IMG/VR virus record: IMGVR_UViG_3300017716_001697 | Coordinates: 32,001 to 96,000 of that record | Length of the DNA stretch: 64,000 nt | Source of the DNA: a virus | Taxonomy: Duplodnaviria; Caudoviricetes | Strand: one strand, 5' to 3' | In this document: positions 18,820 to 18,932 of the stretch, in pieces | Layout: each line of letters begins with the position of its first letter | Position numbering within the stretch: the stretch's first letter is position 1 | Translations under genes and position numbers: made by a program | The notes under the pieces: generated by a model | Databases searched by the model: none | What the model saw: only the letters and a program-made list of their open reading frames with translations | What the model was told of the DNA's origin: nothing

Positions 18820-18932
18820 GAATCGCTACCGCATTAAAAATACTCAACCAGCGAACACAGGTTCGATTCCTGTACACTAACTTGTTAGTGTTAGTCTAAT
18901 GGTAGGACAGCCGGCAAATAAAAATGATTCTG
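18820..18932 (+). ncRNA. Y RNA-like unit 5 with permuted tRNA-like domain (YrlA-like)
   Basis: GAATCG-CTACCGCA ... TGATTC-TG enclosing, in order, a T arm, a loop-closed acceptor stem and a D arm. Confidence 0.78.

What the first reader, a model, noticed from the sequence alone, without database searches (positions are those of the whole stretch)
18820..18932. Circularly permuted tRNA mimic inside unit 5 (YrlA-type topology)
Seen: after the handle the order is CCAGC-GAAC, a T arm ACAGG-TTCGATT-CCTGT (18857-18873), an acceptor-like stem closed by a loop ACACTAA-CTTG-TTAGTGT (18874-18891), TA, a D arm GTCT-AATGGTA-GGAC (18894-18908), A, then GCCGG pairing back to CCAGC with one mismatch. There is no anticodon loop and no CCA end. 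Established: bacterial YrlA Y RNAs contain this kind of tRNA-like domain, with T and D loops and a loop-closed acceptor stem joined to the Ro-binding stem. This independently supports the Y RNA reading of the array. Inference: it may act as a decoy or recruiter for tRNA-elbow-binding enzymes.
Basis: partly seen in the sequence, partly recalled or inferred. Interest (0 to 1): 0.85.

Follow-up and report, generated by a model that had tools for sequence, protein, structure and literature searches.

The report
Rearranged tRNA mimic in phage Y-like RNA
A giant freshwater phage encodes a small RNA whose core is a tRNA with its parts in rotated order and no anticodon, attached to a conserved "handle" and placed beside a Ro60-shaped protein gene; the design is conserved in many phages, resembles the known bacterial YrlA Y RNAs, but belongs to a different RNA and protein family that I could not find described.

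Summary
Window 18848-18914 reads: anticodon-stem 3' strand, variable loop, T arm, 7-bp acceptor stem closed by a 4-nt loop, U8-A9, D arm, A26, anticodon-stem 5' strand.

- **Not chance.** A covariance model built only from eight other phage contigs hits it at 57.5 bits (E about 1e-18). It is the best hit in the whole 364,576-bp genome.
- **Conserved fold.** In 17 homologues 94.8% of pair cells are paired. 17 of 21 pairs change on both sides. The tertiary 15:48 pair switches between G:C and A:U.
- **Context.** The module is the cargo of unit 5 (18817-18933) of an RNA array. Each unit has a covarying closing stem and a UWC(A/C)GCAA motif. The array lies upstream of a DUF2828/DUF7788 protein that folds like Ro60.
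- **Family.** It has YrlA topology but is not a YrlA member. Rfam RF02553 does not match, the GNCGAA motif is absent, and the protein is not Pfam TROVE.
- **Function.** Binding to the Ro-like protein and recruitment of a tRNA-elbow reader are inferred, not shown.

This scan noted the same protein-handle pairing before in about 56 other genomes. I found no paper describing it.

The parts
18817..18933 (+). Unit 5 as a whole: closing stem, handle motif, A/U-rich internal loop and tRNA-like cargo
   Evidence: Closing stem AGAATCG (18819-18825) pairs with TGATTCT (18925-18931). The same AAAGAATC...GATTCTG frame is kept in L005, L016, L019, L021 and L022.
18826..18833 (+). Handle motif CTACCGCA, the unit-5 variant of the conserved UWC(A/C)GCAA
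   Evidence: Relatives carrying the tRNA-like unit have TTCCGCAA, TACCGCAA or TTCAGCAA at this place. A strict handle search finds 127 on the gene strand against 3 on the opposite strand in 83 loci.
18848..18852 (+). Anticodon-stem 3' strand (tRNA positions 39-43), CCAGC
   Evidence: Pairs with 18910-18914. This helix covaries: GCCGG/CCAGC here, ACCGG/CCAGT in L022, CCCGA/TCAGG in L016, ACAGT/ACTGT in L019, TTGGT/ACCGA in L021, CTAGT/ACTGG in L024.
18853..18856 (+). Variable loop GAAC (positions 44-48)
   Evidence: C48 faces A15, a non-canonical Levitt pair; 15 of the 17 homologues have G:C or A:U there.
18857..18873 (+). T arm ACAGG-TTCGATT-CCTGT
   Evidence: The helix is 100% paired in 17 homologues, with 3 of its 5 pairs changing on both sides.
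18874..18891 (+). Acceptor-like stem of 7 bp closed by the loop CTTG; no discriminator base or CCA
   Evidence: All 7 pairs of this helix change on both sides among homologues.
18892..18909 (+). U8-A9, D arm GTCT-AATGGTA-GGAC, and A26
   Evidence: U8 and A14 are invariant in 17 of 17 and A26 is present in 16 of 17.
18910..18914 (+). Anticodon-stem 5' strand (positions 27-31), GCCGG
18058..18804 (+). Units 1-4 of the same array, with the same handle and other cargos: 18058-18273, 18324-18446, 18462-18695, 18710-18804
   Evidence: Covarying closing stems AGAGTGG/CCACTCT, AGGATAG/CTATCCT, GGATGA/TCATCC and AGATTAGG/CCTAATCT. Each is followed by GT(A/T)CAGCA.
18010..18037 (+). Consensus sigma-70-type promoter in front of the array
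   Evidence: TTGACA-16-TATAAT, 12 of 12 matches. No promoter-like site lies directly before unit 5.
19255..19289 (+). Cargo-less copy of the handle in the leader of the Ro-like gene
   Evidence: AGATTTA-TAACAGCA...TAAATCT-G, followed by AAAGGAAAA and ATG at 19302. A promoter-like site lies at 19210-19238.
19302..20735 (+). Ro60-fold protein (DUF2828 + DUF7788, phrog_850), the presumed RNA partner
   Evidence: The AlphaFold2 model has mean pLDDT 91.2. The 13 best Foldseek PDB matches are all Ro60/TROVE structures, E 6e-10 to 8e-7, query-normalised TM-score 0.37-0.65 (0.61-0.65 to Xenopus Ro60). A MIDAS-type D269-S271-S273 is invariant.

Best explanation
Unit 5 is a small non-coding RNA of a Y-RNA-like class made of two modules.

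(1) A handle. It consists of a 6-7 bp closing stem, the motif CUACCGCA (family consensus UWC(A/C)GCAA) and A/U-rich strands. The handle is common to all units of the array. It is inferred to be the binding site of the Ro60-fold protein encoded 370 nt downstream.

(2) A cargo that folds as a tRNA L-shape. It has a T arm, a D arm, a 7-bp acceptor stem and a 5-bp anticodon stem. The chain ends emerge through the anticodon stem, and the acceptor end is sealed by a tetraloop.

Because it has no anticodon loop and no CCA end, it cannot decode or be charged. What it offers is the tRNA elbow and body. The most likely mechanism is that the Ro-like ring holds the handle while the tRNA-like cargo docks a host or phage factor that recognises tRNA shape. 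Candidates are PNPase, as in Ro60-Y RNA-PNPase particles, RNase P, the CCA-adding enzyme, tRNA modification enzymes, or a tRNA-directed defence nuclease. This would bring that factor to the Ro-like protein or keep it from its normal substrates.

Shown here: the sequence, its tRNA geometry, conservation with compensatory changes including a tertiary pair, the shared handle, its strand-specific association with the gene family, and the Ro60 fold of the protein.

Inferred: transcription and processing of unit 5, protein binding, and the identity of the recruited factor.
For: - Exact anatomy.
- The leave-one-out covariance model scores 57.5 bits, the best hit in the genome.
- The same model gives 39 matches at E <= 1e-7 in 83 phage loci chosen only for encoding a relative of the protein. 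A few of the weakest look like junctions of tandem tRNA genes.
- On 17 homologues, 94.8% of cells are paired against 33-52% for slid partners. 17 of 21 pairs have changes on both sides.
- The Levitt pair 15:48 is A:U in 8 and G:C in 7 of 17. U8 and A14 are invariant.
- ARAGORN accepts the de-permuted sequence as a tRNA.
- The strict handle occurs 127 times on the gene strand against 3 on the other, in 61 of 83 loci. 47 of the 127 units carry a GTTCRA T-loop.
- Cronobacter phage S13 and Citrobacter phage Ci1 have the permuted form. They also have normal-topology tRNAs whose anticodon loop is replaced by the same handle closed by a hairpin. This is the circular permutation seen from the other side.
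- The protein folds like Ro60.
- In true Ro60 systems, Y RNAs with tRNA-like domains are bound by Ro60, lie within 4 kb on the same strand, and can tether PNPase (PMC4201824; PMC12135203).
Against: - No direct evidence that unit 5 is transcribed as a discrete RNA. No promoter-like site lies directly before it.
- The RNA-library contigs laid on the array cover units 1-3 of relatives. Unit 5 is covered only by a run that is probably DNA.
- No binding data exist for any DUF2828 protein and these RNAs.
- Minimum-free-energy folding is not better than shuffles.
- This copy has an A15.C48 mismatch where relatives keep a canonical pair, and a C.A mismatch in the anticodon stem. It may be a weakened copy.
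- Handle units also lie 35-46 kb away from the gene in this genome, so adjacency is not strict.
- In several close relatives the unit abuts a ribosome-binding site, which would also fit a cis-acting leader.
Confidence: 0.6

Rival explanations
1. It is a cis-acting leader or processing element rather than a free RNA partner. The tRNA-like fold would serve as an RNase P, RNase Z or RNase E punctuation signal that cuts the array transcript into units. Alternatively, the adjacent handle would be an operator through which the Ro-like protein controls the downstream reading frame.
For: - In L005, L016 and L019 the 3' strand of the unit's closing stem lies 5-10 nt before AAGGAAAA and the ATG of the Ro-like gene. 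In L021, L022 and the window it lies before another ORF.
- The window has a cargo-less handle in exactly that place before the Ro-like gene.
- No own promoter precedes unit 5.
- M. smegmatis YrlA is cut by RNase P (PMC4201824).
Against: - RNase P needs a 5' leader entering an open acceptor stem. Here the acceptor is sealed by a 4-nt loop, and in some relatives it is nearly deleted (L023, L008).
- A pure processing signal would not need a conserved 15:48 tertiary pair plus an anticodon stem fused to a conserved handle.
- The same design occurs downstream of the gene in S13 and Ci1, and far from it in this genome.
Confidence: 0.15
2. It is a protein-independent decoy. The tRNA-shaped RNA would soak up a host tRNA-directed defence enzyme or toxin that reads the elbow or acceptor helix. 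The handle would serve only for stability.
For: - The region is rich in tRNA genes and RNA-repair functions: 13 tRNAs in the window and an RNA ligase at 14666-15688.
- A homologue of the protein (Bas63 gp130) was reported to counter the Ppl defence system (preprint PMC11482910). This shows that the module matters in phage-host conflict.
Against: - Most known tRNA-cutting defence nucleases read the anticodon loop, which is missing here.
- The strict, strand-specific co-occurrence of the handle with the Ro-like gene (127 against 3) argues that handle and protein work together.
- The reported anti-Ppl effect was assigned to the protein.
Confidence: 0.12
3. It is a permuted tRNA gene, as in the red alga Cyanidioschyzon merolae, that is circularised and recut to give a working tRNA.
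For: - The 3' half precedes the 5' half, as in permuted tRNA genes.
- Some relatives carry ACCA inside the acceptor loop (L039:1999-2078, L043:2025-2109, L069:4067-4146). These could be opened into a CCA-ended molecule.
Against: - There is no 7-nt anticodon loop. The anticodon stem opens into a 15 x 11 nt A/U-rich internal loop and the handle.
- Unit 5 has neither a discriminator base nor CCA.
- The handle is conserved instead of an anticodon.
- There is no near-identical donor among the 45 tRNAs of the genome.
Confidence: 0.02
4. It is a chance resemblance, or the decayed junction of two tandem tRNA genes (the T arm of one and the D arm of the next).
For: Junctions of tandem tRNAs do score with the model at 20-36 bits. 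Chen et al. 2014 warned of the same artefact.
Against: - Unit 5 scores 57.5 bits, 21 bits above the best junction.
- Its two acceptor strands are complementary to each other and joined by 4 nt.
- Its outer 5-nt strands pair with each other.
- All four helices covary in 17 homologues.
Confidence: 0.01

Closest known systems
YrlA-type bacterial and mycobacteriophage Y RNAs bound by Ro60/Rsr (Chen et al. 2014, PMC4201824; Rfam RF02553)
   Same: - A two-module RNA: a stem that holds both ends and carries the protein-binding motif, plus a tRNA-like domain in the order variable region, T arm, loop-closed acceptor stem, D arm.
- Conserved T- and D-loop nucleotides and a covarying 15:48 pair.
- Encoded close to, and on the same strand as, a ring-shaped HEAT + vWA protein.
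- Several different Y-like RNAs per locus.
   Different: - RF02553 does not match.
- The GNCGAA(N)G motif is replaced by UWC(A/C)GCAA with A-rich strands.
- The partner is DUF2828/DUF7788, with 12-18% identity to the Ro60 structures in the Foldseek alignments and no Pfam TROVE hit.
- Arrays reach five or six units with unrelated cargos.
- Modification, protein binding and PNPase tethering are untested.
Thermus phage phiLo Ro60 with Yrl1 and Yrl2 (PMC12135203; PDB 9KOP, 9L5Y)
   Same: - A phage-encoded Ro60-fold protein with Y-like RNAs encoded just upstream on the same strand.
- 9KOP is the best structural match of the window's protein.
   Different: - phiLo Yrl RNAs were picked by the CGAA motif and a stem-bulge-stem shape. 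That paper's text has no match for 'tRNA-like'.
- The phiLo protein is a recognisable TROVE protein.
Permuted tRNA genes of Cyanidioschyzon merolae (from my own knowledge; not checked here)
   Same: The 3' half of the tRNA is encoded before the 5' half, and the acceptor strands are joined by a short linker.
   Different: Those genes mature into normal decoding tRNAs with an anticodon loop. Unit 5 has a handle where the anticodon loop would be, and no CCA.
Handle-bearing tRNAs of normal topology in Cronobacter phage S13 and Citrobacter phage Ci1 (annotated tRNA-Ser, tRNA-OTHER or pseudo-tRNA; L003:4895-5015, L003:5025-5137, L001:4891-5005)
   Same: - The same tRNA body and the same (U)UCAGCA handle element, next to the same protein family.
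- They are circular permutations of the unit-5 design.
   Different: The ends are at an open acceptor stem with an encoded CCA, and the handle is closed by a hairpin. The Rfam tRNA model does match them.

Membership tests
YrlA (Rfam RF02553; Chen et al. 2014) | Match to the family covariance model at or above its gathering score (69 bits) | tested here: not met
   A search of the whole genome with RF02553 gives nothing over the cut-off. The best hit is 20.9 bits, at a tandem-tRNA junction. Unit 5 is not among the matches at E <= 10. cmscan of 17900-19350 gives no family at E <= 10.
YrlA (Rfam RF02553; Chen et al. 2014) | GNCGAA(N0-1)G motif on the 5' strand of the Ro-binding stem | tested here: not met
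   The 5' part, 18817-18847, contains no CGAA. The conserved motif at that place is CTACCGCA here and UWC(A/C)GCAA in relatives.
YrlA (Rfam RF02553; Chen et al. 2014) | tRNA-like domain in the order V, T arm, closed acceptor stem, D arm, with conserved T/D-loop nucleotides and a covarying 15:48 pair | tested here: met
   In unit 5 itself the 15:48 pair is A.C.
YrlA (Rfam RF02553; Chen et al. 2014) | Encoded within about 4 kb of, and on the same strand as, a Ro60 (TROVE) ortholog | tested here: inconclusive
   The unit is on the same strand, 370 nt upstream of a Ro60-fold protein. That protein is DUF2828/DUF7788, not Pfam TROVE. A profile search of PDB reaches Ro60 only at E = 0.03.
YrlA (Rfam RF02553; Chen et al. 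2014) | Bound by Ro60 in vivo, and modified by TruB and DusA | not testable with these tools
   Needs immunoprecipitation and modification mapping.
tRNA (Rfam RF00005) | Cloverleaf in the normal order with an anticodon loop and an open acceptor end | tested here: not met
   There is no RF00005 or ARAGORN call at 18817-18933. ARAGORN calls it a tRNA only after rotation and addition of an artificial loop and ACCA tail.
DUF2828-associated handle RNAs (provisional class, defined here) | Closing stem of 6-9 bp, UWC(A/C/U)GCA(A/U) directly 3' of its 5' strand, G directly after its 3' strand, on the strand of a DUF2828 gene | tested here: met
   Unit 5 has AGAATCG, CTACCGCA, then TGATTCT-G. The class occurs 127 times on the gene strand against 3 on the opposite strand in 83 loci.
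Ro60 / TROVE + vWA proteins (partner protein, 19302-20735) | HEAT-repeat ring plus a vWA domain with a MIDAS motif | tested here: met
   The AlphaFold2 model has pLDDT 91.2 and pTM 0.90. The top 13 Foldseek PDB matches are all Ro60/TROVE over the full length. D269, S271 and S273 are invariant. Sequence-level membership (Pfam TROVE) is not met.

The most novel reading that the evidence does not exclude
DUF2828 proteins and handle-tagged RNAs form a second, phage-dominated Ro/Y-RNA-like particle system. One protein ring would be loaded, through a universal UWC(A/C)GCAA handle, with interchangeable RNA cargos that imitate host RNAs. Unit 5 would be the tRNA-elbow bait. The baits would capture or redirect host tRNA-handling or tRNA-directed defence enzymes during infection. 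The handle can be grafted either onto the anticodon side of a normal tRNA or onto a circularly permuted one, which would show modular evolution of RNA mimics.
Probability: 0.3. Interest if true: 0.85.

Novelty: new variant of a known kind. Interest (0 to 1): 0.62.

Why it matters
Ro60 and its Y RNAs are a conserved but still poorly understood RNA-surveillance system, and the purpose of the tRNA-like domain of bacterial Y RNAs is an open question.

The same architectural idea appears here in a different protein family and a different RNA family. That protein family has more than 6,000 clusters at 50% identity and occurs in 710 deposited phage genomes.

Natural variants dissect the design:
- acceptor stem sealed (this window);
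- acceptor stem nearly deleted (L023, L008);
- acceptor loop carrying CCA (L039, L043, L069);
- normal-topology tRNA bearing the handle (S13, Ci1).

These variants point to the elbow plus anticodon stem as the constant part. Several cultured phages (S13, Ci1, Felix O1-type Bas63) carry homologues of the protein, and S13 and Ci1 also carry the handle RNAs. That makes the function of tRNA mimicry in Ro-type particles directly testable. It may also explain many "pseudo-tRNA" or "tRNA-OTHER" annotations in phage genomes.

Tried and rejected
- **Rfam at the gathering threshold** on the whole window finds only 12 ordinary tRNAs. Rfam at E <= 10 on 17900-19350 finds nothing.
- **RF02553 (YrlA)** on the whole genome gives no match to unit 5.
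- **blastn** of the array against 50,697 phage records gives no match. DNA-level relatives had to be reached through the protein.
- **Single-sequence folding** recovers the T and acceptor hairpins and the closing stem, but z-scores of -0.5 to -0.7 are not significant.
- **MAFFT alignment of whole units** (A1) was structurally inconsistent, so I modelled only the cargo (A3).
- **A tRNA donor for unit 5** among the genome's 45 tRNAs: only generic similarity.
- **A handle-like pair enclosing tRNA-Pro** (window 5679-5819) looks like chance. My loose scan gives 6-15 hits in simulated genomes, and the 5' part lies in a short ORF.
- **Expression.** Contigs from two metatranscriptome runs cover parts of units 1-3 of relatives at about 90-99% identity. 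Unit 5 is covered only by a run labelled RNA-Seq that is probably DNA. Contigs cannot show ends, strand or level, so I draw no conclusion on transcription of unit 5.
- **Sequence-only link of the protein to Ro60** is weak: phmmer finds nothing relevant and the profile search reaches E = 0.03. The link rests on the predicted fold.
- **Complex prediction** was not used, because it cannot take RNA.

Full report
**1. Observation**

The region 17985-18935 has no protein-family match. A 96-aa ORF with no family follows at 18940-19230. Then comes a 477-aa gene at 19302-20735.

- CCAGC 18848-52 and GAAC 18853-56.
- ACAGG-TTCGATT-CCTGT 18857-73.
- ACACTAA-CTTG-TTAGTGT 18874-91.
- TA 18892-93.
- GTCT-AATGGTA-GGAC 18894-908.
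- A 18909.
- GCCGG 18910-14.

Read as tRNA positions, this gives 39-43, the variable loop, the T arm, acceptor strand 66-72, a 4-nt loop, acceptor strand 1-7, U8-A9, the D arm, A26, and 27-31.

The hallmark nucleotides are all present: U8, A14, G18-G19, A21, G53-C61 and the T loop TTCGATT. The anticodon stem has one C.A mismatch. There is no anticodon loop, no discriminator base and no CCA.

When I rotated the sequence into tRNA order and added an artificial 7-nt loop and an ACCA tail, ARAGORN called a 74-nt tRNA with each of four arbitrary loops.

**2. Is it more than chance?**

Energy alone does not show it. The minimum-free-energy fold recovers the T hairpin, the acceptor hairpin and the closing stem, but z is only -0.5 to -0.7. 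The comparative evidence is decisive.

I fetched 80 phage contigs that encode a relative of the 477-aa protein and three cultured-phage loci. A simple structural search for a T arm, directly followed by a closed hairpin, two bases and a D arm found such modules beside the gene in many of them.

From eight of these, none from this genome, I built a covariance model of 70 positions and 21 pairs (A3 and R1). Its results:
- It matches window 18848-18914 over its full length at 57.5 bits, E about 5e-19.
- In the complete 364,576-bp genome this is the best hit.
- The next hit, 36.1 bits, is a junction of two tandem tRNA genes.
- A second, degenerate copy lies at C1:9225-9293, at 29.9 bits.

**3. Conservation of structure**

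The model finds 39 matches at E <= 1e-7 in the 83 loci plus the window.

On the 17 best matches (A5):
- 94.8% of pair cells are standard pairs, against 33-52% when the 3' partners are slid by 1-3 columns.
- 17 of 21 pairs show changes on both sides.
- All seven acceptor pairs and four of five anticodon-stem pairs covary. The alignment is fitted to the model, which favours it somewhat.

A tertiary contact covaries too. Position 15 against 48 is A:U in 8 sequences and G:C in 7. The two exceptions are this window (A.C) and L012. U8 and A14 are invariant.

This is the same argument Chen et al. 2014 used for YrlA (PMC4201824). The family is therefore selected to fold as a tRNA L-shape. The window's copy is a slightly imperfect member.

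No tRNA of the genome (45 by ARAGORN) is a close donor.

**4. The surroundings: a handle shared by an array**

Unit 5 is closed by AGAATCG (18819-25) pairing with TGATTCT (18925-31). CTACCGCA follows the 5' strand directly, and G follows the 3' strand. A/U-rich strands of 15 and 11 nt lie between this stem and the anticodon stem.

Units 1-4 have different, covarying closing stems followed by GT(A/T)CAGCA. They lie at 18058-18273, 18324-18446, 18462-18695 and 18710-18804. A cargo-less copy sits at 19255-19289, just before the ribosome-binding site of the 477-aa gene.

In the 83 loci, a strict definition of the handle finds 127 copies on the gene's strand and 3 on the other, in 61 loci. The definition is a stem of at least 7 bp, TWC[ACT]GCAW, the complementary strand, then G. 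47 of the 127 units contain a GTTCRA T-loop.

Close relatives keep unit 5's own frame, AAAGAATC...GATTCTG, while the cargo helices change.

A perfect sigma-70-type promoter lies before unit 1 (18010-18037). Others lie at 18281-18309 and 19210-19238. None lies directly before unit 5, so unit 5 would be co-transcribed with the upstream units.

**5. Natural variants**

- In L023 and L008 the acceptor stem is nearly deleted, and in L011 and L012 it is shortened to 3-4 bp. The T arm, D arm and anticodon stem stay.
- In L039:1999-2078, L043:2025-2109 and L069:4067-4146 the acceptor loop contains ACCA, so cleavage could open a CCA end.
- Cronobacter phage S13 and Citrobacter phage Ci1 carry, just downstream of the gene, one permuted unit each (L003:5152-5290, L001:5139-5276).
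- The same two phages also carry normal-topology tRNAs whose anticodon loop is replaced by spacer, hairpin, UAUUCAGCA, spacer. That is the same handle closed by a loop.

The two forms are circular permutations of one design. The constant parts are the elbow, the anticodon stem and the handle.

**6. The protein**

The product of 19302-20735 matches Pfam DUF2828 and DUF7788 and PHROG 850 "RNA-binding protein", not Pfam TROVE.

- The family is very large: 6,152 representative clusters at E <= 0.001 and 710 phage records. Mycobacteriophage members are annotated "Ro-like RNA binding protein".
- Sequence links to Ro60 are marginal. The profile search against PDB reaches E = 0.03, on the vWA part.
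- The AlphaFold2 model is confident, with pLDDT 91.2 and pTM 0.90.
- Its 13 best PDB matches are all Ro60/TROVE structures over the full length. These include Thermus phage phiLo, Xenopus, human and Deinococcus Ro60, at E 6e-10 to 8e-7. The query-normalised TM-score ranges from 0.37 to 0.65 and is 0.61-0.65 against Xenopus Ro60.
- A MIDAS-type D-x-S-x-S is invariant.

Two papers reached the same structural view for homologues and speculated about Y RNAs without identifying them. One is on Listeria phage CKA15 (PMC12282133). The other is on Bas63 gp130, which it reports to counter the Ppl defence system (preprint PMC11482910).

**7. Mechanism**

By analogy with Ro60-Y RNA particles, I take the handle as the protein-binding module and the tRNA-like fold as the effector module (PMC4201824; the phiLo Ro60-Yrl-PNPase complex, PMC12135203). 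The effector would dock a factor that recognises tRNA shape.

Without an anticodon loop or a CCA end, the RNA cannot decode, be charged, or be a substrate of anticodon nucleases. What remains is the elbow, the sealed acceptor helix and the D/T core.

Candidates for the docked factor are PNPase, RNase P, the CCA-adding enzyme, TruB, TrmA or Dus enzymes, or a defence protein that reads tRNA shape. This step is inference.

Rivals:
- A cis-acting leader or processing signal. This is supported by the unit's position directly before a ribosome-binding site in relatives.
- A protein-independent decoy.
- A true permuted tRNA gene. This is excluded by the absence of an anticodon loop.
- A tandem-tRNA remnant. 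This is excluded.

**8. Comparison with what is known**

Unit 5 works like, and has the topology of, YrlA, but it fails the membership tests:
- RF02553 exists in the library (114 positions, gathering score 69 bits) and does not match unit 5 at E <= 10.
- The GNCGAA(N)G motif is absent.
- The protein is not a TROVE-family member by sequence.

I therefore file it as a new variant of a known kind: a Y-RNA-like, tRNA-mimicking RNA of a distinct handle family paired with the DUF2828 branch of Ro60-fold proteins.

Full-text searches found no description of these RNAs. The library is incomplete, so this is not proof.

Earlier notes of this scan report the same protein-handle pairing in about 56 other genomes. 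I used them only for the Rfam accession, and I tested the claim independently here.

**9. Limits**

The phage is an uncultured freshwater metagenome genome. Transcription, RNA ends, protein binding and modification of unit 5 are untested.

RNA-library contigs of relatives cover units 1-3. Unit 5 is covered only by a run that is probably DNA.

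Noticed in passing
L003:4895-5015 and 5025-5137; L001:4891-5005 and 5012-5125: Cronobacter phage S13 and Citrobacter phage Ci1 have tRNAs of 113-121 nt annotated tRNA-Ser, tRNA-OTHER or pseudo-tRNA. They have a normal-topology tRNA body with an encoded CCA. Their anticodon loop is replaced by a roughly 54-nt insert carrying AACGC, a hairpin and UAUUCAGCA, which is the handle motif closed by a loop.
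   Followed up: partly
L023:1235-1287, L008:2249-2301, L011:2404-2464; L039:1999-2078, L043:2025-2109, L069:4067-4146: These are variants of the permuted module. In some the acceptor stem is almost deleted. In others the acceptor loop contains ACCA, so cleavage could give a two-piece, CCA-ended tRNA-like RNA.
   Followed up: partly
genome C1:4354-4407, 9190-9303, 13763-13819, 15452-15513 (outside the window, which is C1:32001-96000): Further handle units (AG-stem, (G)TWCAGCA, complementary stem, G, T-rich tail) lie 35-46 kb from the Ro-like gene, among tRNA genes. C1:9190-9303 carries a second, degenerate permuted tRNA-like cargo that lacks the anticodon stem.
   Followed up: partly
window 1705-1780: A tRNA with anticodon CTA (ARAGORN labels it 'tRNA-Pyl'; Rfam tRNA 63 bits). 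It is a possible amber-suppressor tRNA in a jumbo phage and might point to TAG recoding of late genes.
   Followed up: no
L003:5300-5590 and L001:5283-5565: Downstream of the handle RNAs in S13 and Ci1 lies a conserved ORF-poor stretch of about 280 nt. It starts GCTCGTTCTCGGTGACTG and ends with a T arm plus ACGAGCGCCA, a tRNA-like end pair enclosing a large insert. No Rfam family matches it at the gathering threshold.
   Followed up: no
window 18940-19230: A 96-aa ORF with no Pfam or PHROG match lies between unit 5 and the promoter and mini-handle of the Ro-like gene. In L005, L016 and L019 the tRNA-like unit abuts the Ro-like gene directly, so this ORF looks like an insertion.
   Followed up: partly
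window 18121-18450 and 18490-18677: Contigs from two metatranscriptome runs of other studies (freshwater sediment and freshwater) match units 1-3 of the array at about 90-99% identity. One 151-nt contig spans almost exactly unit 2 (18300-18450). Contigs cannot prove transcription.
   Followed up: partly
window 17538-17984: A BLUF (blue-light FAD sensor) domain protein is encoded directly upstream of the RNA array in a phage (Pfam E = 1e-16).
   Followed up: no
window 14666-15688 and 21023-21478: An RNA ligase (PF09414 plus the PHA02142 OB fold) lies 3.4 kb upstream. A staphylococcal-nuclease-like protein lies just downstream of the Ro-like gene, followed by a cluster of seven tRNA genes (21523-24365). 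The setting is one of RNA repair and tRNA genes.
   Followed up: no
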